Program-made: the position numbers and the translations under genes
Assembly: GCA_002328485.1 (NCBI GenBank)
Contig: DCUF01000082.1
Location: 14,533 to 78,532, forward strand
Length of the DNA: 64,000 bases
Origin: Deltaproteobacteria bacterium UBA2221
GTDB lineage: Bacteria > Desulfobacterota > Syntrophorhabdia > Syntrophorhabdales > WCHB1-27
Reading direction: 5' to 3'
Notes under the pieces: generated by a model
Told to the model about the DNA's origin: nothing
The model's input: the letters and a program-made list of their open reading frames with translations, nothing else
Databases searched by the model: none
Shown: piece by piece, positions 10,958 through 30,184 of the stretch
Numbering within the stretch: position 1 is the first letter of the stretch
How the letters are laid out: every line of letters begins with the position of its first letter

Positions 10958-11725
10958 TCAGAATTCAAGGGTCATCCCGTCATAGGCTGCTACGACGTCT
11001 ATCCCCGTTTCACCCGTGATCTTATGGGCCAGGAGCGGTGGCTTCTCCTGGATAAAGTTTAGGCCGAAATGGGTCATGACGGCCATTTGCGGCCGAACGG
11101 CCGCGATAATCCTCCTAAAGTCGTCCACAGACAGGTGATCGATCTTTTCATCGGAGGCAATGGGCTTCACGCGAAGCACGTTGACGATAAGGATATCCAC
11201 CTGATCGTAGAAACCCGGTAGGGCGTCCCAAAAACGGGTGTCCGCGATAATCCCGATTCTCTTGTTAAGATGAAATATCAGACCATATGATTCTACAGGG
11301 TGGATATGACGAACCGGTACCGTAAACGCTATGTCCCCCAGTCGATATTGTCCGTCCGGCCGTAGCAGATTCAGCCCCTCCAGATAGGAGCGGACGTACC
11401 GAAGGACGACGGGATCCTCTTCGATTGCGTCTCGGGGACAGAAAAGATGGCCCTTCCGCCTGAACCCGCCGTCGGCCATCGCCTCGATCATCACATTGAC
11501 ATCATTTGCATGGTCAAGGTGTTTGTGGGTCAGGATGATGCCGTCCAATTGCGAAGGGTCATACCCGTTTCTCAGACCGTGGAGCCTGACAAGGGCCCCG
11601 GGACCGGGGTCGATGTACAGGTTGGTGTTCCGATAACTGAACCACAAACCGCCCGTGGACCGCGCCTGCTTCGCTGTGACAACCCGGGCTCCGCCGGTCC
11701 CGACAAATCTGATAAAGCCTTCCAT
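10958..11725 (-). CDS. MBL-fold metallo-hydrolase
   Basis: HKHLDHAND is the HxHxDH motif. GAGGA RBS is present. Confidence 0.8.
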   Translation of the reverse strand: MEGFIRFVGTGGARVVTAKQARSTGGLWFSYRNTNLYIDPGPGALVRLHGLRNGYDPSQLDGIILTHKHLDHANDVNVMIEAMADGGFRRKGHLFCPRDAIEEDPVVLRYVRSYLEGLNLLRPDGQYRLGDIAFTVPVRHIHPVESYGLIFHLNKRIGIIADTRFWDALPGFYDQVDILIVNVLRVKPIASDEKIDHLSVDDFRRIIAAVRPQMAVMTHFGLNFIQEKPPLLAHKITGETGIDVVAAYDGMTLEF

Positions 11726-11782
11726 CGTGGTCCTCGTTTATGTTATCTTCTAAGTCTAAAAGTTGAGGTAGCGGAAGTCAAT

Positions 11783-12316
11783 TTGGATAGAATAGAGTTC
11801 GCCATAGACAGGTCTGATTTCGGTAATCTCACCCTGGTGACCCGGAACGGAAGGCTGGTCAGCCTTGATATCGATTCGGATGACCGGCTCCGGTTGAGAA
11901 AGTCCGTTTTATCCCGATATCCGGATGCTAAGGAACGGCCCGAGTCCTTCCGGCCCCTCCTGCGAGCCCTGGACCGTTATTTTAAAGGCAGGCGGGTCGA
12001 TTTTGAGACAGCTTTGGACATGGATGATTTGGGGGATTTCACACGGGCGGTTTTGACCGAGGTGTCAAAGGTGCCCTATGGAAAGACGACGACCTATGGG
12101 AGTCTGGGCGCGGCGATAGGGTTCCCCAGGGCGCCGAGGGCGGTGGGGCAGGCGCTAGGACGAAATCCCATCCCCATCGTTGTACCCTGCCACAGGGTCG
12201 TAAAAGCCGATGGATCTTTGGGCGGGTTTACTATAGGCATAGAGATGAAAGCGCGCCTTCTGACTATCGAAGGCATCCGCCTTAGGAGACTTGGTAACTC
12301 TATCGTCCTCTCATAA
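11783..12316 (+). CDS. ogt: Methylated-DNA--protein-cysteine methyltransferase
   Basis: VPYGKTTTYGSLG...NPIPIVVPCHRVV contains the PCHR active site. The proposed start is TTG 11783. The track ORF start 11447 overlaps the MBL gene on the opposite strand. Confidence 0.8.
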   Translation: MDRIEFAIDRSDFGNLTLVTRNGRLVSLDIDSDDRLRLRKSVLSRYPDAKERPESFRPLLRALDRYFKGRRVDFETALDMDDLGDFTRAVLTEVSKVPYGKTTTYGSLGAAIGFPRAPRAVGQALGRNPIPIVVPCHRVVKADGSLGGFTIGIEMKARLLTIEGIRLRRLGNSIVLS

Positions 12317-12344: not shown

Positions 12345-12839
12345 ATGAAGCAGTGGTTTGTGGTCAATACAAAGCCAAAGAACGAAAACCGGGCCGCCCA
12401 CAATCTCGAATCCGGCGGATTTGAAGTGCTGAGCCCCAGGCTGAAGGTCCGTAAATATAGGGAAACAAAATTCCTTGATGTCGTAGAGCCCATGTTCCCC
12501 AACTACATTTTTGTAAAGTTCCATCCCGTTGACGACTATCATATGGTCAAATACGCCAGGGGTGTCAAAAAAATAATCACCTTCGGCGGAAAGATGGTCC
12601 CTCTGCAGGACCAATTCATCGAGTTTATCCGGGGGCGACTTGTCGATGGCGTCGCCAAGATAGAGAAGAAGAGATTCAAGAAAGGCGAACGCATCTTCAT
12701 CAAAGACGGCCCTTTCAAAGGTCTGCCAGGTGTCTTCGAGAGAGAGTTGGAGGGTGAAGAGCGGGTCATGATACTCCTCGAAGGCATCAATTATTACGCC
12801 CAGATGGTGATCGACAGCGACCTGATCGCGGAGCCGTAG
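12345..12839 (+). CDS. rfaH: NusG-paralog transcription antiterminator, RfaH-like
   Basis: WFVVNTKPKNENRAAHNLE...EPMFPNYIFVKFHP...ARGVKKIITFGGKMVPL parallels E. coli RfaH (WYLLYCK...EPLFPNYLFVEFDP...RGVSHFVRFG). A C-terminal KOW-like segment ERIFIKDGPFKGLPGVF is present. Confidence 0.8.
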   Translation: MKQWFVVNTKPKNENRAAHNLESGGFEVLSPRLKVRKYRETKFLDVVEPMFPNYIFVKFHPVDDYHMVKYARGVKKIITFGGKMVPLQDQFIEFIRGRLVDGVAKIEKKRFKKGERIFIKDGPFKGLPGVFERELEGEERVMILLEGINYYAQMVIDSDLIAEP

Positions 12840-13042
12840 TCGATGCTTCGACGCCCCTTCCAATGCCTGGCCAAAAGCAGCGGTTCGTGCCTAAACTTTG
12901 ATAAGAATCTGAGACAAACGTTTTTCACAAAGCGTTTCCGTCGATACTGGTCAGTCACGGATGGAGGTCGCCAATTCACTGCCGATCCATCTTCTGGCAG
13001 AGGCTTTACGCACGTACTTGGTACGACAATTGCAACCAGCCT

Positions 13043-13091
13043 TTGACAACCGACAAAAGCCTTGACAAAAAGCGTATGATTCGAAATAAAA
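13043..13091 (+). promoter_or_regulatory. Candidate promoter region for the polysaccharide locus (two TTGACA boxes)
   Basis: TTGACA occurs at 13043-13048 and 13062-13067. The second is followed 17-18 nt later by AATAAA/ATAAAA (13085-13091). The assignment is ambiguous. Confidence 0.3.
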
Positions 13092-13151
13092 GGTGTTGTC
13101 GTGAGGAATCTAATCACGGTTTTAGCCTGCGTCATGAAACGATGCTCGAAA

Positions 13152-13163
13152 GGCGGTAGCATA
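13152..13163 (+). promoter_or_regulatory. ops-like element (RfaH recruitment/pause site) in the leader
   Basis: GGCGGTAGCATA compared with the E. coli ops GGCGGTAGCGTG. The first 9 nt are identical. The site is on the non-template (+) strand and 215 nt upstream of the first locus gene. Confidence 0.5.
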
Positions 13164-13377
13164 TCGCAAATCTCCATGTAATAGTTGAGAAGCAAAGAAC
13201 AATGGTCACACAGTTTCCATCACGCTTGTTGCTGAACCAGTCGCTCGCCATCTCCTTTTTGATCGAAAAGACGAGGAGATACAGCCAAGACTTAGTCAGA
13301 TGGCCTTCGAGAGCATCGCTTGAGACGAATTATGTTATTGCCGAATCTGGCTGTGCCCTTAATTGTCAAGGTGAGGA

Positions 13378-14367
13378 ATGGGCAGAAAAAGGATAGAAGC
13401 GAAGGAAACGGAGAGGAATTTTGTGCTAATCGGGGCGGCGGGTTATGTAGCACCGAGACACATGAAGGCCATAAAAGACACGGGGAACCGTCTCATTGCC
13501 GCCTTGGACAAACATGATGCGGTCGGTGTTATCGATAACTATTTTCCGGATGCCGATTTCTTCGTTGAATTCGAACGCCTTGATCGACATGTTGAGAAGC
13601 TGAGGCGATTGGGGCATGAAAGAAAAGTTGACTACGTCAGCATAGCCTCTCCGAACTATCTGCACGACGCACATATTCGATTTGCGCTACGAGTCGGCGC
13701 TCATGCCATATGCGAAAAACCTCTTGTCCTGAATCCCTGGAACGTGGATGCCCTGGCCGACATCGAGCGGGAATCGGGGAGAAAAGTCAATGCAGTGCTG
13801 CAGCTAAGGCATCATCCGGCCATTGTTGCCCTAAAGCAACGAGTGAACAAGACGACTTCTGTTAGCAAGGCAGATGTTGATCTCACTTATGTCACGTCGC
13901 GGGGTAAATGGTATATGGTGTCCTGGAAGGGCGATGTGCCGAAATCAGGGGGTATTGCAACGAACATAGGCATCCATTTCTTCGATATGCTCCAGTGGGT
14001 TTTTGGCCCCGTTCAGTCAAACCGGGTTCATCTGCTTGAACCAAAAAAGGCGTCAGGATTCCTTGAGCTCCGCGATGCGCGGGTCAGGTGGTTTCTCTCT
14101 CTTGATCGAGAGGATCTCCCGGAGCCTGTGAGGACCGCCGCCGGTAACACCTATAGATCCGTGAGCGTGAATGGTGAGGAGATAGAATTCTCTGATGGTT
14201 TTGGGGACCTCCATACAGTGAGCTACCGGGAAATACTTCGGGGCAACGGATTCGGGCTCTCTGACGTGAAACCGGCCATAGAAATCGTCTACGATATCAG
14301 AAATGCAACAAATGTGGTTCTCAAGGGGGACTACCACCCTTTGCTAAAATCAGTGACCAGAGAGTAG
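13378..14367 (+). CDS. Gfo/Idh/MocA oxidoreductase, WbpB-like (UDP-GlcNAcA 3-dehydrogenase type)
   Basis: NFVLIGAAGYVAPRHMKAIKDTGNRLIAALD is typical of WbpB-type enzymes. An alternative start is GTG 13423, which has a GGAGAGGA RBS. Confidence 0.8.
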   Translation: MGRKRIEAKETERNFVLIGAAGYVAPRHMKAIKDTGNRLIAALDKHDAVGVIDNYFPDADFFVEFERLDRHVEKLRRLGHERKVDYVSIASPNYLHDAHIRFALRVGAHAICEKPLVLNPWNVDALADIERESGRKVNAVLQLRHHPAIVALKQRVNKTTSVSKADVDLTYVTSRGKWYMVSWKGDVPKSGGIATNIGIHFFDMLQWVFGPVQSNRVHLLEPKKASGFLELRDARVRWFLSLDREDLPEPVRTAAGNTYRSVSVNGEEIEFSDGFGDLHTVSYREILRGNGFGLSDVKPAIEIVYDIRNATNVVLKGDYHPLLKSVTRE

Positions 14368-14373
14368 AAGACA

Positions 14374-15036
14374 ATGGGCGAAAAGAATTGGTTTGTTCAC
14401 GAAAGTAGTTACATTGACCAAGGGGTAGAGATCGGTGAAGGCACCAAAATTTGGTACTTCTGCCATGTCTTAAAAAACGCCAAGATAGGGAGAAACTGCG
14501 TAGTCGGTCAGAATGTGTCCATCGAAACGAACGTCGTTGTCGGCGACCGATGCAAGATACAGAACAATGTGTCTATATATAAAGGCGTAACCCTTGAAGA
14601 TGATGTCTTCTGTGGTCCGTCGTGCGTTTTCACCAATGTCTACAATCCAAGAGCGTTTATCGAGAGAAAGCAGGAGTTCAGGCCTACTCTGGTTAGACGA
14701 GGTGCGACGATTGGCGCAAATGCCACGGTAGTGTGCGGTGTGACTATCGGCCGGTACGCACTCGTAGGCGCGGGTGCGGTCGTGAAGCAAGACGTACCAG
14801 ATTACGCCATCGTTGCGGGAGTGCCGGCTCGACAGATAGGGTGGACCTGCAAATGCGGAACCAGACTAAGCATACCGGGCTTAAAGAATAAAGGCGTTAC
14901 AGAAGACATAGGGGTGGCCAAATGCTTATACTGTGGTAACGAGTATCAGCTTCAAGTTGACAAACTGATGGTGATCAGTGAAATCGAGAACTACCTTGGC
15001 CTCACTTTGACCAACGGTCCGAGCGAGATCGGTTAG
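14374..15036 (+). CDS. Left-handed beta-helix N-acetyltransferase, WbpD-like, with a C-terminal 4-Cys extension
   Basis: Hexapeptide repeats are present ([26 protein letters not shown], ...). The tail is [10 protein letters not shown]...[10 protein letters not shown] (CxC...CxxC). Confidence 0.8.
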
Positions 15037-15049
15037 CGGAAAGAGTCCC

Positions 15050-16216
15050 ATGAAAATTCCCATGTTGGATCTCAAGCGTGAATATGAGTATATGAAGGAG
15101 GACATCGACGCCGCTATTGCCCGTTGCCTTCAGCATCAGCAGTGGATCCTTGGACCCGACGTAGAGGAATTTGAGGGTAAGGTGGCAGAGTATATAGACG
15201 TCCGTCACTGTATCGGTGCCTCTTCGGGTACGGATGCACTCGTGCTTGCCCTTCGCGCTCTCGCCTTGAAAACAAAAGGTCAGGAGTATTTCGATCGTTC
15301 CGACCTGGTTATCACCACCCCTTTTACCTTCACCGCCACGGGAGATGCGATCCTTCGAGCTGGAGCAACCCCCGCATTCGTTGATATCGATTCCAAAACG
15401 TTCAATATTGACCCCGATCTGATTCGTAAATTCCTTTCGAGCCTTTCGTCCCGTGACCTGGTCCGCGTCAAGGGCCTTCTTCCCGTCCATCTCTATGGCC
15501 GATCATGTGAGATGGATGACATTATGGCAATCGCCAACGAGTACGGCCTCTTTGTCGTAGAGGATGTGGCTCAGGCCTTTGGTGGAGGTTGGAGGGGAAG
15601 AAAACTGGGATCGATCGGAACGGCTGGGGCTTTCAGCTTCTTCCCGTCGAAAAACCTTGGGGGGTTTGGTGACGCCGGTATGGTGTCCACCAACGATGAC
15701 CAGATTGCCGAACTGGTCCGGCTGCTTCTCAAGCACGGGGGAAAAGACAAATACAATGTGGATCATATCGGATACAATGCGAGGCTTGATACCCTTCAGG
15801 CGGCGGTGCTTTTGGCAAAGTTGAAGTATGTTGATGAATTCAACGAACGGAGAAGGAGGATCGCTTCAGCCTACAACGAGCTTTTTGGGGGGTCCGAGGG
15901 TATTAGTGTGCCAATGCAGGGGTCTGAATGCGATCTGGTTCGCCATGTCTATCATCAATATACAATCAGACACCCTGAGCGCGACAAGTTTCGAGAATAT
16001 TTGGAAACCAACGGGATAGATTCCATGATCTATTATCCCACCCCCCTCCATAAAATGAAGCTTTTTGACGAGGGACGGAGCATGGTGCTCGAAAGACCCG
16101 TTGTCGCGGAAGAGGCGGCCCGTTCCGTCCTCAGTCTGCCCGTTGAGCCCTTGCAGACACAAGAAGAAGCGGCCGCCATTGCCTGCAAGATTCAGGAATT
16201 CATCAACCGTCGCTGA
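15050..16216 (+). CDS. DegT/DnrJ/EryC1/StrS PLP aminotransferase, WbpE-like
   Basis: GASSGTDALVLAL...FSFFPSKNLGGFGDAGMV contains the PLP-Lys region. Confidence 0.85.
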   Translation: MKIPMLDLKREYEYMKEDIDAAIARCLQHQQWILGPDVEEFEGKVAEYIDVRHCIGASSGTDALVLALRALALKTKGQEYFDRSDLVITTPFTFTATGDAILRAGATPAFVDIDSKTFNIDPDLIRKFLSSLSSRDLVRVKGLLPVHLYGRSCEMDDIMAIANEYGLFVVEDVAQAFGGGWRGRKLGSIGTAGAFSFFPSKNLGGFGDAGMVSTNDDQIAELVRLLLKHGGKDKYNVDHIGYNARLDTLQAAVLLAKLKYVDEFNERRRRIASAYNELFGGSEGISVPMQGSECDLVRHVYHQYTIRHPERDKFREYLETNGIDSMIYYPTPLHKMKLFDEGRSMVLERPVVAEEAARSVLSLPVEPLQTQEEAAAIACKIQEFINRR

Positions 16217-16266
16217 ATGCGGACAGGGCTCGGGCTCCGAAAGCCTAAGAACTCCGTTACGACTCC

Positions 16267-17550
16267 ATGGCAAAAAACAGAGTATTGATGTTTGGAAACT
16301 TCCACGAACTTCATGTTCAACCATTAGCCCGTGCACTGAAGACCCGTGCAGACTATCATATTTCCCTTCTCGAGTCCGTCCCCCCCGGGGATGAGCTTTT
16401 GCGCAGCCGACCGACCGCATTCGATCACGTCTACTCAATACCGGTGGCGTCAGAGGGACTGGGCCGGGTGAACTGCCTGCGGCAAGTAGGCAAATTGCTT
16501 CTCCGGAGAAAATGCGTAAGCCGCTTCATGACCCTCTACCGCCTGCTGGCTCCCATGGCTCGGACCTCGTCCTCAAGACAATATTGGAAACAGTTTTGCC
16601 GGACAGCAGACGAATTGCAGCGCAGAGCGCTCCTGAGCCGGATCGTTGAAGAGTTCGATCTTTTTCACCTTCATTATATGGATCCTTCACTATCAGAGAC
16701 GATAAGGCTTCTGCCCAGAGGATCCAAACTGATCGTTTCAATCTGGGGCTCGGATCTTATGCGTTCGAGCGGAGCAAGAAACTACATCGGCCAGCTCGAA
16801 CTTTGCGAGAGGGCCTCTTTCATTACCGTACGATCTCTCGAATTACGGGAGATGTTCTTAACAAAGTTCGGTCGTCATTTTGCGCCGAAACTGAGAATAG
16901 CAAAATTCGGCAGTACAACGCTCAGCCGGATCGATGTCCAGGACATCCGTTCGCTTAGGACTGCGTTTCGGGAAGAATTCACAATCCCTGAGAACAAGGT
17001 GATTGTGTGCGTGGGTCATAACGGCAATGTAGATAACCGGCACATAGAGGTTCTAGAAGCACTATCAGGTCTGGATTCGTCAGTAAAGAACGGGCTAACG
17101 CTTGTGATACCCATGACCTACGGAGCACCAACAGGCTACGCCAATGATGTTCGAGCTGCCGTGGAAAGGGCTGGAGGGGATTTTCGGATCATTGACAAAT
17201 TCATGGACAGCGAAGCTGTCCTGCAATTGAGAGCCGCAACCGACATCATGCTACACTTTCCTGTTTCCGATGCTCTTAGCGCGGCGATGTGCGAAACGAT
17301 ATACGCAGGTAACCTTGTCGTTACCGGAGCCTGGCTTCCTTATGGAGAGCTGCGGAGAAGGAAAGTGCACTTTTTGGAGATCACAAGATTCCCGGATCTC
17401 TGCGCGACGCTTGCCGCTTCGATTGGGGATTTGACGCGGCACAGGGCGATGGTAAACTCGACGAAGGAGAAACTCCGTGAGGTATTGGACTGGGAGGAAT
17501 TGTCAGAGGGATGGGAGAAAGTCTACGCGTCCGCCCTGGGCAACTGGTAA
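16267..17550 (+). CDS. Hypothetical protein, probable GT-B-fold glycosyltransferase (family unclear)
   Basis: 427 aa with no TM segments. HLHYMD...VSIWGSDL and a C-terminal LHFPVSDALSAAMCETIYAGNLVV resemble GT-B halves. The locus context supports the call. Confidence 0.45.
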   Translation: MAKNRVLMFGNFHELHVQPLARALKTRADYHISLLESVPPGDELLRSRPTAFDHVYSIPVASEGLGRVNCLRQVGKLLLRRKCVSRFMTLYRLLAPMARTSSSRQYWKQFCRTADELQRRALLSRIVEEFDLFHLHYMDPSLSETIRLLPRGSKLIVSIWGSDLMRSSGARNYIGQLELCERASFITVRSLELREMFLTKFGRHFAPKLRIAKFGSTTLSRIDVQDIRSLRTAFREEFTIPENKVIVCVGHNGNVDNRHIEVLEALSGLDSSVKNGLTLVIPMTYGAPTGYANDVRAAVERAGGDFRIIDKFMDSEAVLQLRAATDIMLHFPVSDALSAAMCETIYAGNLVVTGAWLPYGELRRRKVHFLEITRFPDLCATLAASIGDLTRHRAMVNSTKEKLREVLDWEELSEGWEKVYASALGNW

Positions 17551-17592
17551 ACTTTTGGTATCTTTGATACTGTTCTTAAGAAGAGGGAAATC

Positions 17593-18285
17593 GTGAAAGC
17601 AGTCATTCTGGCTGGGGGCCTGGGAAGTCGGCTGCGTCCTTTCACTGAAGTAATACCAAAACCGCTGTTGCCTTTGGGCGAGAAGAGTCTGATGGAAGTG
17701 CAGATTGCGGGCCTTCGTGATAGTGGCTTCAATGAAATCTACATCGCAACGAACTATATGGCTGACTACGTGCAAGCCTTTCTCGGTGATGGCTCCAGGC
17801 TTGGAGTCAGTCTTACCTATAGCCGCGAACCGAAACCGCTTGGGACATGTGGCCCCCTTACGCTGCTCAAGGATCTATTGACTGAACCATTTCTTCTTGT
17901 GAATGGTGATATCCTGACGAAGCTGAGTTTCAAAGAATTCTTCGACTGGTCAGTTCGGCGTGAGAGTATGATGACAGTGGCTACCAAGATTATTTCCACA
18001 CCCTTTCGTTTTGGCAACGTAAGGGCGGATGAGAGAAATGAGATTATCGAGATCGAGGAGAAGCCTGACCTAAAAATGGAAATCCTTGCCGGCATCTACT
18101 TTATGAAGCCGGATATCCTGGCTCTCATCCCAGAAAACCAGTACTTCGGCATTGATACCCTGCTCAAGAATATGCTTGCGCGGCGAATGCTCGTTTCTCG
18201 ATTCCTAATCAGTGAGTACTGGATTGACATCGGCCAGGTCGAGGATTATAGCAAAGCGCGAGAAGCGTTCGATGCGAATTTCTAG
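17593..18285 (+). CDS. Sugar-phosphate nucleotidyltransferase
   Basis: MKAVILAGGLGSRLRPFTEVIPKPLLP is the G-x-G-x-R-L signature. GTG start with a GAGGGA RBS. Confidence 0.8.
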   Translation: MKAVILAGGLGSRLRPFTEVIPKPLLPLGEKSLMEVQIAGLRDSGFNEIYIATNYMADYVQAFLGDGSRLGVSLTYSREPKPLGTCGPLTLLKDLLTEPFLLVNGDILTKLSFKEFFDWSVRRESMMTVATKIISTPFRFGNVRADERNEIIEIEEKPDLKMEILAGIYFMKPDILALIPENQYFGIDTLLKNMLARRMLVSRFLISEYWIDIGQVEDYSKAREAFDANF

Positions 18286-18988
18286 CGCTACCGGGAACGG
18301 AGCAGGATTTGATGCCCTACCACGAGATTCTGTGGTTATCCTGGGTGCAGGTGGCCACGCGGCAGTTCTTATCGATATTATTAGGGAATCTAACATTTTA
18401 CAGATTGCGGGAATACTTGACCGTCCTCAATCTGCCCGCATCGGAGAAGCACATTGTAATGTGCCCATTATGGGCGGTGACGAACTGCTCTGTGTTCTTG
18501 AAGAGAGGGGGGTCAAGTCTTTTGTCGTGGGCGTTGGCTCCAAGGGAGACAATCGGCTACGGGAAGAACTCTATCATCTTGCGGTCAACGCGGGCCTATC
18601 GCCGTTTATGGTGATTCACCCATCATCAATGATTGCCTCGACGGCTCATCTCGGTCCTGGAGCCCAGATCCTGGCAGGATCCATTGTAAATTCATACGCG
18701 ACTGTCGGGGCTAACGCTATCATTAATACTGGGGCAGTGGTGGAGCATCATTGTGTTGTTGGAGAACATAGTCATGTTGCACCGGGAGCCGTGATAGGGG
18801 GCGAAGTCAGCATAGGGTATCGAGCTCACATCGGATTGGGGGCCAAGATCCGGGAAGGCCTTCGAATCGGCAACCATTCATTGGTCGGCGTTGGCGCTGT
18901 GGTAATTGATGATGTGGCTGATAATACCGTAGTGGTTGGAAATCCTGCCAAACATTTGAGGATGAATCTTATTGATATAGACACATAA
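18272..18988 (+). CDS. NeuD/PglD/VioB-family sugar N-acetyltransferase
   Basis: VVILGAGGHAAVLIDII is the N-terminal Rossmann-like motif, followed by hexapeptide repeats. ATG 18272 overlaps the upstream gene by 14 nt. The track start is 18212. Confidence 0.75.
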   Translation: MRISSATGNGAGFDALPRDSVVILGAGGHAAVLIDIIRESNILQIAGILDRPQSARIGEAHCNVPIMGGDELLCVLEERGVKSFVVGVGSKGDNRLREELYHLAVNAGLSPFMVIHPSSMIASTAHLGPGAQILAGSIVNSYATVGANAIINTGAVVEHHCVVGEHSHVAPGAVIGGEVSIGYRAHIGLGAKIREGLRIGNHSLVGVGAVVIDDVADNTVVVGNPAKHLRMNLIDIDT

Positions 18989-19101
18989 CCAACTGCCGGA
19001 AGAAAACAACTATGGCATTGGGTAAGAGAAGGCTTGGATCAGCGATTGCATCCAACTTTTCATGGTGGAGATAAATATGGGAATCCTTTGGGGACCATAG
19101 T

Positions 19102-20079
19102 ATGTCTGGCAAAAAGGTTCTGATAACTGGGGCTGGAGGTTTCATCGGGAGTCACCTGGCTGAGCGTCTCGTGATTGAGGGTGCTACGGTTAGGGCCTTT
19201 GTTCACTACAACGCCTCTGGCAAGAACGGCTGGCTGGACGAATCCGATTACCGGGGTGAGATGGAGATAGTCGCAGGCGACGTATGTGACCGTGATACCA
19301 TTCGCTCAGCAGCGAAGGGTGTGGAAGTGATATTTCACCTCGCAGCGCTCATAGCCATACCGTATTCTTATCAGGCGCCTTTTTCCTACATGAGAACCAA
19401 TATCGAAGGCACCCTCAACGTCTTGCAGAGCGCGATCGACCGAGGGGTCAAGAAGGTGATTCACACTTCTACGAGCGAGGTCTACGGCACGGCACGGCAC
19501 GTTCCCATAGATGAAAGTCACCCCCTGCAGGCTCAGTCACCTTATTCGGCAAGTAAGATCGGAGCCGACAAAGCGGCCGAAGCTTTTTACCATTCCTTCG
19601 GGCTGCCCATCGTTACCATCAGACCATTCAATACCTTTGGCCCCCGACAGTCCGGACGGGCGGTGGTGCCAACCATCATCGCTCAATGCCTGTCAGGAGA
19701 GGCAATACGGTTGGGGAGTGTACACCCCAGGCGCGACCTCAACTATGTTTCAAACACCGTGGACGGATATATTCTGGCATCGGAGTCCGATCAAGCTGTG
19801 GGGAAAACGATGAATCTCGGTTCTGGACGCGAAATCAGCATAGGGGATCTCGTGAAGGTCATAGCCGGTTTGACCAAGAGAGACGTGCATATTGAAGAAG
19901 ATCACAGGCGAGTGCGCCCAGAGAAGAGCGAGGTCGATAGACTGTTGGCGGATAGTAGTCAGGCAGACAAGATTCTTGGCTGGAAACCCAGAGTAGGCCT
20001 GGAGGAGGGTCTGTCGATCACGATTGAGTGGATGCGTCAAAACCTGACGAGATACCACTCGGACAAATACGCTATTTGA
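19102..20079 (+). CDS. Extended-SDR NAD-dependent sugar dehydratase/epimerase (4,6-dehydratase-like)
   Basis: VLITGAGGFIGSHL and STSEVYG...SPYSASKIGADK (YxxxK) are present. Confidence 0.8.
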   Translation: MSGKKVLITGAGGFIGSHLAERLVIEGATVRAFVHYNASGKNGWLDESDYRGEMEIVAGDVCDRDTIRSAAKGVEVIFHLAALIAIPYSYQAPFSYMRTNIEGTLNVLQSAIDRGVKKVIHTSTSEVYGTARHVPIDESHPLQAQSPYSASKIGADKAAEAFYHSFGLPIVTIRPFNTFGPRQSGRAVVPTIIAQCLSGEAIRLGSVHPRRDLNYVSNTVDGYILASESDQAVGKTMNLGSGREISIGDLVKVIAGLTKRDVHIEEDHRRVRPEKSEVDRLLADSSQADKILGWKPRVGLEEGLSITIEWMRQNLTRYHSDKYAI

Positions 20080-20087
20080 GGAGTATT

Positions 20088-21269
20088 GTGGGCGGGTGCA
20101 AAGAAGAGATTCCCCTGAGTGTGCCCTGTTTGAAAGGCAATGAGTGGAATTATGTCAAAGAATGCCTAGACACCAACTGGGTATCTTACGTAGGACCATT
20201 TGTGAAGCGATTCGAAAAGGAACTCGCAGTAGTGACGGACGCGCGACATGCCGTCGCCATGTCGAGCGGAACCGCCGCGTTGCATGTTGCCCTCATATTG
20301 GCAGGGGTGAAACCCGACGAAGAAGTAGTGATGCCTGCACTCACCTTTGTAGCCCCGGCAAATGCCGTTCGGTATTGTGGCGCATGGCCTGTTTTGATCG
20401 ATATCCAGGGCTGTGACTGGCAAATGGACATAGACCAGCTGTCCCATTTCCTTTCTGATAGCTGCGTCCGAAGGCGCGGCCTACTTTTCAACAAGATTAC
20501 CGGCAGGCGTGTGGCAGCTCTGTTGCCCGTGCATTTGCTTGGCGCAATGTGCGATGTGGACGCAGTGGCAGAACTGGCAACCATGTATGAGCTTCCGCTC
20601 ATCGAAGATGCTGCGGAATGTTTGGGCGCTACATACAAGAATAGGCCAATTGGTGCCTCTACGCCAGCCTACAATGGTCCGCTTCGTATCGTTGTTACCA
20701 GCTTCAATGGTAACAAGGTTATGACTACAGGTGGTGGAGGAGCTCTCCTTGCCAACGAAAATAGCGTGGCTGACAGGGCCATGCACTTGAGCACGACGGC
20801 GAAAGTGGATGATTTTGAATTTCTTCATGATGAAGTGGGCTACAACTATCGATTGACCAACATTGCTGCTGCACTAGGAGTTGCCCAACTTGAGCAACTG
20901 AATGACCATGTGGAATTCAAAAGGATGGTGGCTCACAGGTATGAAGGGATCTTCCTTGGCCATTCTCATATCACAGCCCATCCTGAGGCGCGGCAGTGCA
21001 GGAGCACTTTCTGGCTATACACGGTGCTTCTCGACATTCAATCCAAGCCGATAGTAGAGTACCTCAATAGCAAGGGCATTATGGCTCGCCGTGTCTGGCT
21101 GCCCATTACAGACGTGCCGCCCTTCAAAGACAAAGTATTCAGCACCGGGTGCCAAATGGCCAATCACCTTCATGAGTACGCTTTAAACATCCCCTGTAGC
21201 GTAGGGATCACGCCAGGCCAGATTGAGACCGTAGCGGAACAACTCACGTTTGCCATTTCTCGCCACTAA
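20088..21269 (+). CDS. DegT/DnrJ/EryC1 PLP aminotransferase
   Basis: GTG 20088 follows GAGGAG. AVAMSSGTAALHVAL...SFNGNKVMTTGGGG is present. The track start 20028 overlaps the SDR gene. Confidence 0.8.
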   Translation: MGGCKEEIPLSVPCLKGNEWNYVKECLDTNWVSYVGPFVKRFEKELAVVTDARHAVAMSSGTAALHVALILAGVKPDEEVVMPALTFVAPANAVRYCGAWPVLIDIQGCDWQMDIDQLSHFLSDSCVRRRGLLFNKITGRRVAALLPVHLLGAMCDVDAVAELATMYELPLIEDAAECLGATYKNRPIGASTPAYNGPLRIVVTSFNGNKVMTTGGGGALLANENSVADRAMHLSTTAKVDDFEFLHDEVGYNYRLTNIAAALGVAQLEQLNDHVEFKRMVAHRYEGIFLGHSHITAHPEARQCRSTFWLYTVLLDIQSKPIVEYLNSKGIMARRVWLPITDVPPFKDKVFSTGCQMANHLHEYALNIPCSVGITPGQIETVAEQLTFAISRH

Positions 21270-22804
21270 TGACGATGGGTGCTCAAATTCAGCCCTCAGA
21301 AGAAGCAGGAACCGGCCTGCGAGACAGCATCATCAGCGGTATTGTTTGGAAATCCGTGAACCAGATGCTTCTTCTCGCCGTTCAACTAGGTGTCATGGTT
21401 GTTTTGGCGCGGCTGCTTACGCCTCGAGACTATGGACTGGTAGGAATGGTTACGGCCATTACGGGATTTGCTGCTATCTTTGTGGATCTCGGTCTCACAA
21501 CAGCGATTATCCAAAAGCAAGACACGACACAGGTGGAGATGTCGACAGCATTTTGGACAAACAACGGGATGGGCATTCTTGTTTTTGTCGTTGTCTGGTT
21601 TTTGGCTTCCCCTATCGCTCGATTTTATGAAGAACCGTCACTGATCTGGATCACACGATGCATCGGATGCGTTTTTATCCTTACGCCGCTATCTTCCGTG
21701 CATAACGCACTACTAATGAAATCCCTTCGATTTAGAAGCGTGGTGCTTATCAACAGCACAGCGCTCCTGGTATCATCGGTTGCGGCCATTACCTCAGCCT
21801 TCATTGGGCTTGGATACTGGAGCCTGCTGATCCAACCGATAGTCATGGGTTTCGTCAATGCGGTCCTTCTGTGGTTGATTGTTGGATGGGTACCATCCTT
21901 AGCCTTTAGCGGAAGGGTATTGAAAGGTTTCATGGGGTTCAGCGGTTACCTGTCCCTGAACCAGGCAGTTGGGTACTGGAGCCGAAACATCGATAAGCTC
22001 ATGATTGGTAGACTCGCAGGAACAATATCATTGGGTCTCTATTCCCGTGCTTACATCTTGATGCTCATGCCACTGCAACAGGTTTCTAACGTAGTTGATT
22101 CCGTTCTCTTTCCAGCTTATGCCAAGATTCAGAATAACCGGCGGGAAATTGCCCAGATCTACCTCAAGGCGATGAGGCTAACCGCACTGGTAACCTTTCC
22201 AATTTCTTTCGGTTTGTGGGCCATTTCGGAACCAGCCGTACTTGTCGTATTTGGTTCGAAATGGTATGACGCGGTACCAATACTGCAGGTGCTTTGCCCT
22301 CTCGGTGCAGTACAATCCATCCTATCACTAAATGGGTCTATCTATCTGTCGCAAGGAAATACGAGACGAGCGTTGGTTGTAACTTCTTGTGTGACCCTTG
22401 GAACATCGATCGCTTTCTATCTTGGATACTGGGCGGCGGGGATGACAGGTATGGTCTGGGCATACTTTATCTTTTGTTTAATGGCTGCCCCATTTATCTA
22501 TCTTTCAGCCGCGTCGCTCATCCAGTTGACGCTGCTTGATCTGTTACGAAACCTTCGGGGATTAGCTGAAGCCACGGTCTCAATGCTACTTGTTGTCTTA
22601 TGTCTGCGATTTCTTGTTGATTCTTCGGGCTGCCTCATGCAATTGAGTGTGCTAGTCACTGGTGGTTTTGTTGCCTACCTCATTGCTCTCCATCTCCTGA
22701 GGGTTAAAGCATACCGGGAAGCCGTTAGGTTGGTACGTTTGAAGCTGCTTGGCGCACTTCGTGAGCCTCAGACCCGAGAGGGCGGGACATTAGGAAGCGT
22801 GTAG
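21269..22804 (+). CDS. wzx: Wzx-type flippase (MOP/polysaccharide biosynthesis protein family)
   Basis: 511 aa, highly hydrophobic and multi-spanning. The start overlaps the upstream stop (TAATG). Confidence 0.8.
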   Translation: MTMGAQIQPSEEAGTGLRDSIISGIVWKSVNQMLLLAVQLGVMVVLARLLTPRDYGLVGMVTAITGFAAIFVDLGLTTAIIQKQDTTQVEMSTAFWTNNGMGILVFVVVWFLASPIARFYEEPSLIWITRCIGCVFILTPLSSVHNALLMKSLRFRSVVLINSTALLVSSVAAITSAFIGLGYWSLLIQPIVMGFVNAVLLWLIVGWVPSLAFSGRVLKGFMGFSGYLSLNQAVGYWSRNIDKLMIGRLAGTISLGLYSRAYILMLMPLQQVSNVVDSVLFPAYAKIQNNRREIAQIYLKAMRLTALVTFPISFGLWAISEPAVLVVFGSKWYDAVPILQVLCPLGAVQSILSLNGSIYLSQGNTRRALVVTSCVTLGTSIAFYLGYWAAGMTGMVWAYFIFCLMAAPFIYLSAASLIQLTLLDLLRNLRGLAEATVSMLLVVLCLRFLVDSSGCLMQLSVLVTGGFVAYLIALHLLRVKAYREAVRLVRLKLLGALREPQTREGGTLGSV

Positions 22805-23080
22805 CGGAGCCAAGAGAGTCATTCCTGGACGGCTCAGATCGGCTTAGGCCTTCACAAACGGACGACCCAATAGACACCTGCCCGGCGGGCCATGTTTTTG
22901 TGGAACATGAACCGGCCCACAGATGTCGATCGGTGCGGTAGAACTCAATCGCTTTGATTACGCCTATGCCGATATGTTTTGGAGCAGGACCACACATGAT
23001 ATCCCAGGGCTCTGCTCTGAAAGGAAGACCACTTTAGCACTCGCAAAACTGTACTGCAATCCGGGCGATAGGTAATAAGA

Positions 23081-25057
23081 ATGTGTGGAATTTTGGGACT
23101 CTTTAGCTCAGGGGTAATCCAGAGCCATGGTCATGCGCTTCAGGCCGCAAACGATCTCGTGAGCTACCGGGGACCAGATGGAGCGGGGTTTGCCCTGCTG
23201 TCTTCGCAGCCCTCGCAGCAGCCCTGGGGCACCTTTAGTACGTACATGCCTACCGACAGCGGACCGCGACACGTAGACCTGGTCCTCGCGCATCGGCGAC
23301 TGGCCATAATCGATCTTTCTCCAACGGCAAGCCAACCCATGAGCAGCACGGATGGCAGTCTGTGGATTACCTATAACGGTGAGATCTACAACTACATCGA
23401 GCTTCGGACTGAGCTTGAAAAACTCGGCCATCAATTTGCCAGTCATTCCGACACAGAGGTGATTCTCCACGCCTACCAGGAATGGGGCGAGGCATGTGTG
23501 AATCGGTTCAACGGTATGTGGGCCTTTGCCATTGCCGACATGCCGCAGAGAAGGCTCTTCTGCTCCCGCGATCGTTTCGGGGTTAAGCCTTTTCACTATT
23601 TCTTCGACGGGAAACACTTCCTCTTCGGCTCCGAGATAAAGCAGCTTTTGTGTTTTTCCTTTGTCCCCCGCCGGATAAACAAGGCAGCCATCTACGAGTA
23701 CCTGGCGCATTTTTCGGTAGAGCATTCTGACCAGACATTCTTCTCAGGTATCGCCAATCTCCTTCCAGGGCATAATTTAACATTCGACTTCAGTAATCTG
23801 TCCGTCAAAACAGAAAGATTCTACGCCCCCCGCTTTTCTGTCAATCAAGATATCACTGCGGCTCAAGCCTCTGAGCAGTTCCTGAGCCTTCTTGAGGACA
23901 GCGTAAGACTTCGACTGCGTAGTGATGTAGAAGTCGGTAGCTGTTTGTCCGGCGGTCTTGACAGCTCCTCAATTGTTTGCCTCATGCGTCTTCTGCTGTC
24001 CGACCAGAATCACGGAAAGGTGCAGCACGCCTTCAGTTCCCATTTTGAGGACAAGGAAGCCAATGAACTGGAGTACACCAAGGAGGCTGTTGAAAAAAGC
24101 GGAGTCACCGCCCACTACATCTATCCGACGCCTGAAGGTTTTTTGCGTGATCTTGATCGGATAATATGGCACCAGGAGGAGCCTTTTGGCTCGACAAGCA
24201 TTTTTGCTCAATGGTCCGTGTTCAAGTCCGTTCATGCCCATGGCATTAAAGTGATGCTCGATGGCCAAGGAGCAGACGAGATTCTGGCTGGCTACCCGTC
24301 AACGGGATACCACCTCTTCAGCGAGTTTCTTGCAAAAGGACAGCTGCTGCAATACCTTATGGAGGGTCGGGATCAAAGGCGTGTCGTGGGACGACCTCTC
24401 ATCAACCTTGCATTTCAGCCGATGGCTTTGTTGACAGGTCCGCCCTGGCGGGATCTTGCGGCACGGGCGCAAAGGATGCTGCCCGGAAGTCTTCCTCCAA
24501 ACACCATGTGGCTTGACCCTGGATTTATCAGACAGTACAAGGACAGCAGCGCCTACAAGGCAAATCGACATAGGCTTGCCTTTCAGCCTTCGGAGGTTCT
24601 CAATAACGAGCTGTACCGGCTTACCTTCCACAGTCACCTTCAGGCTCTGCTTAAGTACGAGGACCGAAACTCGATGGCTTTTTCCGTTGAGGGAAGGCTT
24701 CCATTCCTTGATTACCGGGTTGTGGAATTTGCTTTCAGTCTACCGTCATCCTTTAAGATCCGCGGAGGATATACGAAGCGAGTGTTGCGGGAGAGCATGA
24801 GAGGAATACTGCCCGAGAAAGTGCGACAAAGGGTAAGCAAGCTCGGTTTTGCTACCCCCGAGCGCGCCTGGCAACGTACTGTCCTCCGTCCAAAAATAGA
24901 AGACGCCTTGTGCGACCCGCGATTATCCGCCTTCATTGTTCCTGACCGCGCCCGCGATTATCTAAGAATTATAGACAAGTCCGGTCAAACGGACTTCATG
25001 CCCTGGCTTTGGACGAACCTATCTCTGTGGATGAAGGTGCACGATCTGGAGCCGTAA
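23081..25057 (+). CDS. asnB: Asparagine synthase (glutamine-hydrolysing) family amidotransferase
   Basis: MCGILGLF is the Ntn Cys2 N-terminus. SCLSGGLDSS is the PP-loop. Confidence 0.9.
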   Translation: MCGILGLFSSGVIQSHGHALQAANDLVSYRGPDGAGFALLSSQPSQQPWGTFSTYMPTDSGPRHVDLVLAHRRLAIIDLSPTASQPMSSTDGSLWITYNGEIYNYIELRTELEKLGHQFASHSDTEVILHAYQEWGEACVNRFNGMWAFAIADMPQRRLFCSRDRFGVKPFHYFFDGKHFLFGSEIKQLLCFSFVPRRINKAAIYEYLAHFSVEHSDQTFFSGIANLLPGHNLTFDFSNLSVKTERFYAPRFSVNQDITAAQASEQFLSLLEDSVRLRLRSDVEVGSCLSGGLDSSSIVCLMRLLLSDQNHGKVQHAFSSHFEDKEANELEYTKEAVEKSGVTAHYIYPTPEGFLRDLDRIIWHQEEPFGSTSIFAQWSVFKSVHAHGIKVMLDGQGADEILAGYPSTGYHLFSEFLAKGQLLQYLMEGRDQRRVVGRPLINLAFQPMALLTGPPWRDLAARAQRMLPGSLPPNTMWLDPGFIRQYKDSSAYKANRHRLAFQPSEVLNNELYRLTFHSHLQALLKYEDRNSMAFSVEGRLPFLDYRVVEFAFSLPSSFKIRGGYTKRVLRESMRGILPEKVRQRVSKLGFATPERAWQRTVLRPKIEDALCDPRLSAFIVPDRARDYLRIIDKSGQTDFMPWLWTNLSLWMKVHDLEP

Positions 25058-25152
25058 AAGTCTCACAGACCGTGGAAAACCCGGTTGAGGCTCGACAAGA
25101 AAAGCAATAAGGACAAGGAAATGTTAGCTTTAAGCAGACGAGGGTACATAGA

Positions 25153-26301: not shown

Positions 26302-26341
26302 AAATGAACATGTGCTCAGAGCGAACCGAGAGGAGCGGAAT

Positions 26342-30175: not shown

Positions 30176-30184
30176 TGAGGGTAA

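What the first reader, a model, noticed from the sequence alone, without database searches (positions are those of the whole stretch)
12345..13377. RfaH-like NusG paralog followed by a 538-bp leader carrying an ops-like GGCGGTAGC in front of a ~19-kb glycan locus
The 164-aa protein aligns by eye with E. coli RfaH (EPMFPNYIFVKFHP vs EPLFPNYLFVEFDP; RGV...FGG). The unusually long non-coding leader (12840-13377) lies between it and the first biosynthetic gene. In that leader the + (non-template) strand carries GGCGGTAGCATA at 13152-13163. This is identical to the E. coli ops element GGCGGTAGCGTG in its first 9 positions. A given 9-mer is expected about once per 262,000 positions, so a chance hit in a 538-nt leader in the right orientation is unlikely. 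The roughly 18 downstream genes are co-directional, with overlapping or very short junctions. That is the kind of long operon that needs processive antitermination. Regulator and target site adjacent in cis would be a self-contained RfaH/ops module outside the enterobacterial setting where it was defined.
Basis: partly seen in the sequence, partly recalled or inferred. Interest (0 to 1): 0.7.

Follow-up and report, generated by a model that had tools for sequence, protein, structure and literature searches.

The report
RfaH-like antiterminator with conserved ops site
A bog-dwelling Syntrophorhabdales bacterium carries a relative of the E. coli elongation factor RfaH next to a 20-kb sugar-polymer gene cluster, and the cluster's leader holds the same DNA loading signal (ops) that RfaH uses in E. 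coli, so this known control system also operates far outside the enteric bacteria.

Summary
ORF 12345-12839 is a NusG-family protein that scores best as RfaH, although below NCBI's equivalog cut-off. GGCGGTAGCATA sits at 13152-13163 on the coding strand, ahead of a co-directional glycan locus (13378-31962).

The motif is not chance. In 920 kb of related Syntrophorhabdales DNA, GGCGGTAGC occurs at 13 distinct sites on the gene-sense strand. Twelve lie in leaders in front of, or in the position of, sugar or glycan operons; one (L149) lies in unresolved context. All 13 have T at position 11, as in E. coli ops. The motif is absent from 137 loci where the same gene is followed by hflX, dsbC or other genes.

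These leaders are otherwise unalignable. They share one further element, a sigma-54 type -24/-12 promoter (window 13019-13034). It places the predicted start near 13045, upstream of ops.

The regulator is a conserved core gene. The leader plus glycan locus is a variable insert between it and a dsbC-like gene. One exact ops site lies on a different contig from the regulator in another MAG, and one 11-of-12 match has no regulator gene within the 421 nt of contig upstream, so action in trans is likely.

AlphaFold2 predicts a beta-barrel C-terminal domain, not the autoinhibited helical hairpin. His20, Arg23 and Gln24 are replaced.

Verdict: a real RfaH/ops system and a new member of a known kind, with some variant features.

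The parts
11447..12316 (+). O6-methylguanine-DNA methyltransferase (Ada/Ogt-like) gene. It ends 28 nt before the rfaH-like gene and is probably co-transcribed with it. The pair is conserved in relatives.
   Evidence: Pfam DNA_binding_1 and Methyltransf_1N. The same gene order is seen in L082 and on the P0126 contig. blastn synteny.
12345..12839 (+). rfaH-like NusG paralog, 164 aa.
   Evidence: Pfam NusG NGN domain, E 7e-18. Best NCBIfam match is RfaH TIGR01955 at 124.3 bits, below the 144.5 cut-off. Aligned to E. coli RfaH. K10, R16, E48, Y54, F56, R72 (=R73), F131 (=F130) and R140 (=R138) are invariant or nearly so in 96 homologs, as is I92 (=I93). AF2 N-terminal domain superposes on RfaH at 1.6-1.9 A.
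13019..13034 (+). Sigma-54 type -24/-12 promoter element TGGTACGACAATTGCA. The predicted transcription start is at about 13045.
   Evidence: It is one of only two conserved islands shared with the leaders of the 95% and 88% identical relatives. The motif [TC]GG[TC]RYR-N4-TTGCW is found in 14 of 15 ops-bearing leaders and in 0 of 137 other loci. The background rate is 0.004 per 600 nt.
13045..13377 (+). Predicted transcribed leader. It may extend to 13422 if the first gene starts at GTG 13423.
   Evidence: Inferred from the promoter position. No Rfam family matches. No sigma-70 type promoter and no + strand terminator match. RNA folding is not unusual, z = -0.9.
13152..13163 (+). ops-like element GGCGGTAGCATA on the non-template strand. 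G1 lies at about +108 from the predicted start.
   Evidence: There are 13 distinct GGCGGTAGC sites in related DNA and all have T11. It is the most widely shared k-mer among 12 non-redundant leaders.
13378..31962 (+). Glycan (O-antigen or capsule type) biosynthesis locus of 16 co-directional genes, from a WbpB-like dehydrogenase to the initiating sugar transferase.
   Evidence: Pfam assignments. Homologs of the first gene are named UDP-N-acetyl-2-amino-2-deoxyglucuronate dehydrogenase.
31996..33192 (+). FAD-dependent oxidoreductase gene, the last gene of the segment that is absent from the closest relatives.
   Evidence: Pfam DAO and Pyr_redox_2. In L009 and L010 the rfaH-like gene is followed directly by the dsbC-like gene, which matches window 33355-33714.
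33164..34033 (+). dsbC-like thiol:disulfide isomerase gene marking the far boundary of the insert. It has an in-frame TGA at 33635-33637.
   Evidence: Pfam DsbC_N and Thioredoxin_2 on the two halves. Alignment to L010 DsbC.
34430..34456 (+). Strongest intrinsic-terminator-like hairpin (11-bp stem followed by T6), the likely end of the transcription unit.

Best explanation
The 164-aa protein is an RfaH-type specialised NusG paralog. GGCGGTAGCATA at 13152-13163 is its ops-type loading site.

Proposed mechanism (inferred):
- Transcription of the glycan operon starts at a sigma-54 dependent promoter (13019-13034), with the start near 13045.
- About 110 nt later, RNA polymerase exposes the ops sequence on the non-template strand. 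There C3:G8 can close a small DNA hairpin that presents G5 and T6, and T11 provides the pause.
- The paralog binds through its conserved basic patch (K10, R16, R72) and stays on the polymerase.
- It excludes housekeeping NusG and Rho, so the polymerase can complete the roughly 21-kb unit through to the terminator at 34456.

The regulator gene is a conserved chromosomal gene and is not part of the glycan island. The promoter-ops cassette marks the 5' edge of a hypervariable glycan island that sits next to the regulator in about a quarter of close relatives. The same ops signal also precedes a glycan operon elsewhere in another MAG, so the factor probably works in trans as well.

Shown here: protein family, motif, conservation, association with glycan operons, and promoter motif. 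Inferred: transcription start, DNA-hairpin recognition, antitermination.
For: - Protein family. The NGN domain is present and RfaH is the best-scoring model. PDB phmmer hits RfaH at E 1.6e-13, against 1e-9 to 1e-7 for NusG. The AF2 N-terminal domain superposes on RfaH at 1.6-1.9 A.
- Residues. K10, R16 and R73 are required for ops-dependent recruitment in E. coli (PMC5995543). E48, I93 and F130 are the autoinhibition residues (PMC7593976). K10, R16, R73, E48 and F130 are invariant, and I93 nearly so, in 96 homologs.
- Motif distribution. In 162 loci around homologs, exact GGCGGTAGC appears 200-400 nt after the stop codon only where sugar or glycan genes follow (L011, L012, L082/L116-118, L107, L109, L112, L167) or where the contig ends just after the motif (L081, L083, L105). 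The orthologous place in L111 has GACGGTAGTCTG.
- Negative set. There are no hits in 137 loci followed by hflX (82), dsbC (26) or other genes (29). Fisher's exact test gives p = 2e-12.
- Position 11. All 13 distinct sites have T11, a position that was not used in the search; position 12 is G in 7 and A in 5.
- Leaders. They are otherwise unalignable and precede at least six different first genes. CGGTAG is the most widely shared k-mer, present in 12 of 12 leaders.
- Promoter. The sigma-54 motif lies 117-221 nt upstream of ops in 14 of 15 leaders.
- Trans cases. L165 is from Syntrophorhabdus sp. PtaU1.Bin153, whose rfaH-like gene sits next to hflX on another contig (L033). It has GGCGGTAGCCTA in the intergenic region ahead of a WbpB-led operon. 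L168 has TGCGGTAGCCTG at the 5' end of a glycan cluster.
Against: - The protein is below the NCBIfam RfaH equivalog cut-offs (124.3 against 144.5 bits; 99.8 against 124).
- Three ops-contacting residues of E. coli RfaH are replaced: H20 by an invariant N, R23 by S, Q24 by G. The HTT motif (residues 65-67) is absent. H20A strongly impairs E. coli RfaH (PMC5995543).
- AF2 with 31 and with 96 homologs predicts a beta-barrel C-terminal domain, not the autoinhibited alpha-hairpin. Predicted monomorphic RfaH homologs were ops-independent in an E. coli reporter (PMC13015549).
- The window's site has A12, whereas all validated E. coli targets have the TG dinucleotide at positions 11-12.
- No transcription start, pausing or polarity data exist.
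- No enhancer-binding protein gene was found among the 39 window ORFs scanned against Pfam.
- More distant homologs (41-42% identity) next to sugar genes (L079, L080) have no ops.
- The L149 site may lie inside an ORF and lacks the promoter motif.
Confidence: 0.77

Rival explanations
1. The paralog is a monomorphic (not autoinhibited) RfaH homolog. It loads onto RNA polymerase in cis because it is made next to its target. Under this view the conserved GGCGGTAGCNT acts only as a pause site or an inherited remnant, not as a specific docking site.
For: AF2 predicts a beta C-terminal domain twice. H20, R23 and Q24 are not conserved. The gene lies 539 nt from a long operon, which fits the criteria and findings of PMC13015549.
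Against: Positions 3-8 are dispensable for pausing in E. coli but essential for RfaH binding (PMC5995543), and they are invariant in 13 sites and in the L111 variant. In most family members the gene is next to hflX or dsbC, not next to a target. An exact ops site exists on a different contig from the regulator. A sigma-54 promoter separates the gene from the operon, so coupling through read-through transcription is not built in. E48, I93, F130 and R138 are conserved.
Confidence: 0.12
2. The conserved motif serves another factor or process. Candidates are an operator for a DNA-binding regulator of glycan synthesis, an RNA-level element in the 5' UTR, a sigma-dependent pause (TAGCNT fits TANNNT), or a recombination junction of the glycan island. 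Under this view its co-occurrence with the NusG paralog is incidental.
For: No functional data link protein and motif. The motif sits at the boundary of a variable island. T-A-N-N-N-T is retained in every site.
Against: The motif matches the E. coli ops consensus at 10 of 12 positions, including every position that is essential for RfaH recruitment there, and the orientation is always non-template. It occurs only in genomes of a clade that encodes an RfaH-like protein keeping K10, R16 and R73. Its distance from the promoter varies from 117 to 221 nt, which is unlike an operator. No Rfam family matches and the RNA fold is not unusual.
Confidence: 0.08
3. The 9-mer in the window is a chance match.
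For: Within the window alone GGCGGTAG is not significantly enriched: 3 observed against 1.0 expected, with 7 of 100 shuffles reaching that count.
Against: There are 13 independent-context occurrences at the equivalent place in related leaders, all with T11, and none in 137 control loci.
Confidence: 0.01

Closest known systems
Escherichia coli RfaH with its ops / JUMPStart element (waa, rfb, kps, hly and tra operons)
   Same: Both are small NusG paralogs with K10, R16, R73, E48, Y54, F56, I93, F130 and R138. The signal GGCGGTAGC-N-T lies on the non-template strand in the 5' leader of long envelope-glycan operons. The signal sits at the 5' edge of a hypervariable glycan locus. The regulator gene is single and conserved, and sites appear to be used in trans.
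   Different: The host belongs to the Desulfobacterota (Syntrophorhabdales). Identity to E. coli RfaH is only about 25-30%, and the protein scores below the equivalog cut-off. H20, R23, Q24 and the HTT motif are replaced. AF2 predicts a beta C-terminal domain. The promoter in front of ops is sigma-54 type. The regulator gene is often directly adjacent to a target. G12 is replaced by A in the window.
Predicted monomorphic RfaH homologs (Tabilo-Agurto et al. 2026 preprint, PMC13015549)
   Same: AF2 predicts a beta-barrel C-terminal domain, some ops-contact residues are missing, and the gene is encoded within 1 kb of a long LPS-type operon.
   Different: Those proteins were ops-independent in a reporter and are proposed to act in cis. 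Here a canonical ops is strictly conserved in the targets, the gene is a core gene that is usually not next to a target, and E48 is retained.
Bacteroides UpxY (with UpxZ) capsule antiterminators
   Same: Both are NusG paralogs that control capsular or glycan operons and are encoded beside the target.
   Different: UpxY is the first gene inside each operon, present in many copies per genome, and acts on its own 5' UTR. Here there is one gene outside the operon, with a promoter in between. The UpxY model scores only 75.7 bits against a cut-off of 100.
LoaP (Firmicutes) and Myxococcus TaA
   Same: Both are specialised NusG paralogs for long biosynthetic operons.
   Different: They are encoded within antibiotic or polyketide clusters, and LoaP is thought to use an RNA hairpin signal (my own knowledge, not checked here). 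The LoaP model scores 44 bits against a cut-off of 125, and the targets here are glycan loci carrying a DNA ops motif.

Membership tests
RfaH (NusG paralog; TIGR01955 / NF006534) | NusG N-terminal (NGN) domain followed by a short KOW-like C-terminal domain, about 160 aa in all | tested here: met
   Pfam PF02357 covers residues 2-95, E 7e-18. The protein is 164 aa. The AF2 model has an NGN domain plus a small beta domain.
RfaH (NusG paralog; TIGR01955 / NF006534) | Score at or above the curated equivalog cut-off | tested here: not met
   TIGR01955 124.3 bits against 144.5; NF006534 99.8 against 124. RfaH is nevertheless the top family, ahead of UpxY 75.7, NusG 50.5 and LoaP 44.3.
RfaH (NusG paralog; TIGR01955 / NF006534) | ops-contacting side chains whose loss cripples recruitment: K10, R16, H20, R73 (and R23) | tested here: inconclusive
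   K10, R16 and R72 (=R73) are invariant in 96 homologs. H20 is replaced by an invariant N20, R23 by S and Q24 by G. Residue roles are from PMC5995543.
RfaH (NusG paralog; TIGR01955 / NF006534) | Interdomain (autoinhibition) residues E48, I93, F130 and the E48-R138 pair | tested here: met
   E48, F131 and R140 are invariant and I92 is at least 90% conserved. Residue roles are from PMC7593976.
RfaH (NusG paralog; TIGR01955 / NF006534) | [quoted passage not shown] | tested here: inconclusive
   Two AF2 runs (31 and 96 sequences) give beta strands at 116-157, with pLDDT 55-80 and 76-87. The best full-length RfaH match is the active state, 8PHK. AF2 cannot settle a fold switch.
RfaH (NusG paralog; TIGR01955 / NF006534) | Suppresses polarity and activates distal genes of ops-bearing operons | not testable with these tools
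   This needs genetics or in vitro transcription.
ops element | GGCGGTAG core (C3:G8 pair, G4, G5, T6, A7) with the pause T at position 11 | tested here: met
   The window has GGCGGTAGCATA. All 13 distinct related sites have T11.
ops element | G at position 12 (the TG pause dinucleotide of all validated E. coli targets) | tested here: not met
   The window has A12. Among the 13 sites, position 12 is G in 7, A in 5 and T in 1. In E. coli, G12C removes the pause but not recruitment in vitro (PMC5995543).
ops element | Lies on the non-template strand of the transcribed leader of a long operon | tested here: inconclusive
   Strand and position ahead of the operon are shown. That it is transcribed rests on a predicted, conserved sigma-54 promoter 119 nt upstream. 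The transcription start has not been mapped.
Sigma-54 dependent promoter | GG at -24 and GC at -12 with fixed spacing (TGGCACG-N4-TTGCW; consensus recalled from my own knowledge, not checked against a paper here) | tested here: met
   TGGTACGACAATTGCA at 13019-13034. The same pattern is found in 14 of 15 ops leaders, with variable N4, and in 0 of 137 controls.
Sigma-54 dependent promoter | rpoN and an enhancer-binding AAA+ activator present, with an upstream activator site | not tested
   No Sigma54_activat domain was found in the 39 window ORFs scanned. The rest of the genome is not available.
UpxY-type antiterminator | Encoded as the first gene of its own target operon; matches NF033644 | tested here: not met
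   A promoter and a 538-nt gap separate the gene from the operon. The gene is conserved without the operon in most relatives. The score is 75.7 against a cut-off of 100.

The most novel reading that the evidence does not exclude
This family may be an RfaH relative that reads a canonical ops hairpin with a different pocket (Asn20 in place of His20, and no Arg23 or Gln24) and without the alpha-helical autoinhibited state. That would make it a living intermediate in which sequence-specific ops recruitment exists without the fold switch, outside the Proteobacteria. The sigma-54-promoter-plus-ops cassette would then act as a portable 5' adaptor that lets any incoming glycan island be expressed at the hotspot between rfaH and dsbC.
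Probability: 0.22. Interest if true: 0.65.

Novelty: new member of a known kind. Interest (0 to 1): 0.45.

Why it matters
RfaH recruitment has been worked out only for E. coli, and surveys report that about 95% of RfaH genes are in Proteobacteria (PMC7593976). This finding gives a comparative case from uncultured anaerobic Desulfobacterota in which the ops code (C3-G8 plus T11) is preserved base for base although half of the E. coli DNA-contact side chains are changed. That bears on three questions: how the signal is read, whether ops recognition and autoinhibition evolved together, and how variable surface-glycan islands are plugged into host transcription. It also supplies a simple predictor (GGCGGTAGCNT in a leader) for finding RfaH-type regulons in these MAGs. 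It does not reveal a new kind of system.

Tried and rejected
- Promoter and RNA scans of the leader. The sigma-70 promoter scan of 12000-13600 found nothing. By eye, TTGACA(13062)-17-AATAAA lacks the -7 T and is not conserved, so I dropped it in favour of the conserved sigma-54 motif. The Rfam gathering scan found only a tRNA at 42819. The leader RNA fold is not unusual, z = -0.9. Repeat search in the leader found nothing convincing as an activator site.
- Alignment of leaders. MAFFT on the window, L011 and L012 could not align the leaders and did not even register the motif. I therefore used motif and k-mer counting instead.
- One-mismatch hits. One-mismatch ops hits downstream of homologs occur at about the chance rate (roughly 10 expected in 80 loci, 12 seen). 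They were not counted. This includes GGCGATAGC in L053/L069 and TGCGGTAGC in the Pyrinomonadaceae loci L076/L077.
- Collection scan for ops alone. It was not possible, because only 10 bases are conserved and the tool needs 14. The flanking context (GCTCKAAW) proved not to be general (L081, L082).
- Trans-site search through homologs of the first glycan gene. L163, L166 and L171-173 did not reach the 5' end of their operons or were cut by contig ends, so they say nothing. The P0122 and P0126 contigs had no DNA available.
- dsbC-like gene. I first read its split as a frameshift. It is an in-frame TGA at the CxxC cysteine.
- Enhancer-binding protein. None was found among the window ORFs scanned.
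- Literature. Searches found no paper linking RfaH or ops with Syntrophorhabdus or Desulfobacterota. This is absence from the held library only.
Full report
**1. What is there**

ORF 12345-12839 (+) encodes 164 aa. Pfam finds a NusG N-terminal domain (E 7e-18). Among NCBIfam models the best is RfaH: TIGR01955 at 124.3 bits, below its 144.5 cut-off. UpxY (75.7), NusG (50.5) and LoaP (44.3) follow. Against solved structures the best hits are E. coli RfaH chains (E 1.6e-13), with NusG at 1e-9 or weaker.

GGCGGTAGCATA is at 13152-13163 on the + strand. From 13378 to 31962 lie 16 co-directional genes of a glycan pathway:
- WbpB/WbpD/WbpE-like enzymes
- a nucleotidyltransferase
- a PglD-like acetyltransferase
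- a 4,6-dehydratase and aminotransferases
- a Wzx-type flippase
- AsnB
- a UDP-GlcNAc 2-epimerase
- GT4 glycosyltransferases
- an initiating sugar transferase

An FAD oxidoreductase gene and a dsbC-like gene follow. The only strong terminator is at 34430-34456.

**2. Organism and gene context**

Homologs with 60-95% identity come from Syntrophorhabdales and Syntrophorhabdaceae MAGs and from Syntrophorhabdus aromaticivorans (Desulfobacterota). JGI labels them RfaH.

The gene is always preceded by the same neighbours: a histidine kinase, a metallo-beta-lactamase-fold gene on the opposite strand, and an MGMT gene that ends 28 nt before it.

What follows the gene differs:
- In most Syntrophorhabdaceae it is the GTPase gene hflX.
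- In the roughly 80% identical bog lineages it is a dsbC-like gene.
- In some loci it is an unrelated gene (RCC1-repeat, GntR, transglutaminase-like or PEBP).

In L009 and L010 the sequence runs from the rfaH-like stop straight into the counterpart of window 33355-33714. Window 12840 to about 33160 (leader, glycan genes and oxidoreductase) is therefore a roughly 20-kb insert between two conserved genes.

**3. Is the ops-like motif more than chance?**

Within the window alone it is not. Across relatives it is.

I collected 162 loci around homologs, plus loci around homologs of the first glycan gene. The total is 920 kb. Exact GGCGGTAGC occurs 16 times on the gene-sense strand, at 13 distinct sites, and at one distinct site on the other strand.

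Eleven of the 13 sites lie 200-350 nt after the rfaH-like stop:
- Where enough sequence is available, sugar-modifying or glycan genes follow, with at least six different first genes (cytidylyltransferase, Fe-ADH, DegT, a methyltransferase, an unknown 429-aa protein, WbpB). These are the window, L011, L012, L082 (with L116-118), L107, L109, L112 and L167.
- In L081 (protein 95% identical), L083 (88%) and L105, the contig ends soon after the motif.

L111 shares its first gene with L109 and has GACGGTAGTCTG at the orthologous place.

The remaining two sites are L165, a trans case (section 5), and L149, which is unresolved: the motif is at +400, possibly inside an ORF, and there is no promoter motif.

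None of the 137 loci followed by hflX, dsbC or other genes has the motif within 600 nt. For glycan-adjacent against other loci, Fisher's exact test gives p = 2e-12.

Position 11 was not part of the search, and it is T in 13 of 13 sites. Position 12 is G or A in 12 of 13. The leaders cannot otherwise be aligned. Plain k-mer counting over 12 non-redundant leaders puts CGGTAG (12 of 12) and GGCGGTAGC (11 of 12) first.

In E. coli, G4, G5, A7 and G8 are essential for RfaH recruitment but dispensable for pausing. T11 is needed for the pause (PMC5995543). Those are the positions held fixed here.

**4. A second conserved element: the promoter**

The leaders of the three closest relatives share only two islands: the ops region and TGGTACGACAATTGCA at window 13019-13034. 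The second island fits the sigma-54 -24/-12 consensus, TGGCACG-N4-TTGCW (consensus recalled from my own knowledge).

The pattern [TC]GG[TC]RYR-N4-TTGCW occurs 117-221 nt upstream of ops in 14 of 15 ops-bearing leaders. L167 has TGGCATTATAGTTGCA. The pattern occurs in 0 of 137 control loci, and the background rate is 0.004 per 600 nt.

With C13033 at -12, the start is predicted at about 13045. That puts ops G1 near +108.

Part of the 538-nt 'leader' is thus an intergenic promoter region. No enhancer-binding protein gene was found in the window.

**5. Cis or trans?**

Adjacency is real but not the rule. The gene is conserved in many genomes in which no glycan operon is next to it.

Two loci bear on action in trans:
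- In Syntrophorhabdus sp. PtaU1.Bin153 the rfaH-like gene lies next to hflX on contig MVRT01000101 (L033). On contig MVRT01000124 (L165) an exact GGCGGTAGCCTA lies in a 694-nt intergenic region. It is about 105 nt downstream of a sigma-70-like TTGCAA-17-TATAAA, ahead of a toxin-antitoxin pair and a WbpB-led glycan operon.
- L168 has TGCGGTAGCCTG at the 5' end of another glycan cluster. There is no rfaH-like sequence in the 421 nt of contig upstream of it.

Other attempts did not reach operon starts. I conclude that trans action is likely, but this rests on two loci.

**6. How like RfaH is the protein?**

Aligned to E. coli RfaH and checked in 96 homologs:
- Conserved: K10, R16, E48, Y54, F56, R73, I93, F130 and R138.
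- Replaced: H20 by an invariant Asn, R23 and Q24 by variable residues or Gly, and the HTT motif (65-67) by DYH.

K10, R16, H20 and R73 are the side chains whose loss cripples ops-dependent recruitment (PMC5995543). E48, I93 and F130 underlie autoinhibition (PMC7593976).

AlphaFold2 with 31 and with 96 family sequences predicts the C-terminal domain as a beta barrel, with pLDDT 55-80 and then 76-87. The N-terminal domain superposes on RfaH at 1.6-1.9 A, and the best full-length RfaH match is the active state.

A 2026 preprint reports that about 14% of RfaH homologs are predicted this way, lack some ops-binding residues, sit next to long operons and act without ops in an E. coli reporter (PMC13015549). 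This protein fits those descriptors, yet its targets keep a canonical ops. Either AF2 misses a fold switch here, or ops recognition operates without autoinhibition. The data cannot decide between these.

**7. Mechanism proposed**

- Sigma-54 dependent initiation occurs near 13045.
- About 110 nt later the ops sequence is exposed on the non-template strand, and polymerase pauses at U11.
- The paralog docks through its basic patch on the small DNA hairpin and stays bound.
- It excludes NusG and Rho and may aid translation, which allows transcription of the roughly 21-kb unit to the terminator at 34456.

Shown here: family assignment, motif, conservation, association with glycan operons, and promoter motif. 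Inferred: transcription start, pausing, DNA-hairpin recognition, antitermination.

**8. Comparison with known systems, and novelty**

The closest known system is E. coli RfaH with ops/JUMPStart. The signal is the same, the type of target is the same, and its position at the edge of a variable glycan locus is the same.

The differences are the phylum, low identity (about 25-30%), a score below the equivalog cut-off, altered contact residues, a predicted beta C-terminal domain, a sigma-54 promoter, and frequent adjacency to a target. It is neither a UpxY-type nor a LoaP-type system (gene placement).

RfaH homologs outside Proteobacteria have been counted before: 23 of 117 phyla (PMC7593976). Neighbours involved in envelope biogenesis were also noted there. 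The same paper states that the mode of recruitment is known only for E. coli. I found no paper on ops in this lineage.

I rate this a new member of a known kind, with variant features worth testing. Interest is moderate.

Noticed in passing
window 33164-34033 (+): The dsbC-like gene has an in-frame TGA at 33635-33637 that aligns exactly with the first Cys of the CxxC motif of relatives (window DPD*PYCKKLH against L010 DPACSYCAKLH). A 7-bp hairpin, CTTCATC-TGGA-GATGAAG, lies at 33653-33670, 15 nt after the TGA (fold z = -2.0). This looks like a selenocysteine (UxxC) DsbC-like protein with a SECIS element, not a pseudogene.
   Followed up: partly
window 781-796 (- strand): A near-perfect sigma-54 type -24/-12 motif, TGGCATGGCCATTGCT, is on the minus strand. 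It is one of only three matches to the motif in the 64-kb window and suggests that sigma-54 is used elsewhere in this genome. The gene it would drive was not examined.
   Followed up: no
window 22934-22945 (+): TGCGGTAGAACT lies in the 277-nt gap between the Wzx-like and AsnB-like genes. It is a degenerate ops-like sequence (positions 2-8 match, no T11) inside the operon. The window-wide count of GCGGTAG is at chance level (6 against 4.6 expected), so this may mean nothing.
   Followed up: partly
window 13378-13425: The first glycan gene probably starts at GTG 13423, preceded by GGAGAGG, and not at ATG 13378. Homologs cover only 95-96% of the longer ORF, and their N-termini begin near ...LIGAAGY.
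   Followed up: partly
L165 4494-5152: In Syntrophorhabdus sp. PtaU1.Bin153 a small antitoxin-like ORF and a PIN-domain toxin gene sit between the ops site (4138) and the first glycan gene (5709), as if a toxin-antitoxin cassette had been inserted into the operon leader.
   Followed up: no
L076 about 3655 and L077 about 3628: Pyrinomonadaceae (Acidobacteriota) homologs with 40% identity have TGCGGTAGC 145-184 nt after the gene, but it lacks T11 and precedes a carbamoyltransferase gene, not glycan genes. The two loci are close relatives, so this is a single observation. Its meaning is unclear.
   Followed up: no
L011 about 3700-3760, L012 about 3700-3760 and L107: In this subgroup a GC-rich hairpin (CCCGCTT-TCTT-AAGCGGG) followed by TTTTGATATAAT lies between the sigma-54 motif and ops. 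A 5-bp hairpin (CGAGC-N4-GCTCG) directly precedes ops. The window's leader has no counterpart to either.
   Followed up: no
window 41742-42891: A XerC/D-type tyrosine recombinase gene (41742-42626, minus strand) lies next to the only tRNA gene in the window (42819-42891). The neighbouring genes are housekeeping (hslU-like, arginine biosynthesis), so this is probably the chromosomal xerC and not an integrated element.
   Followed up: no
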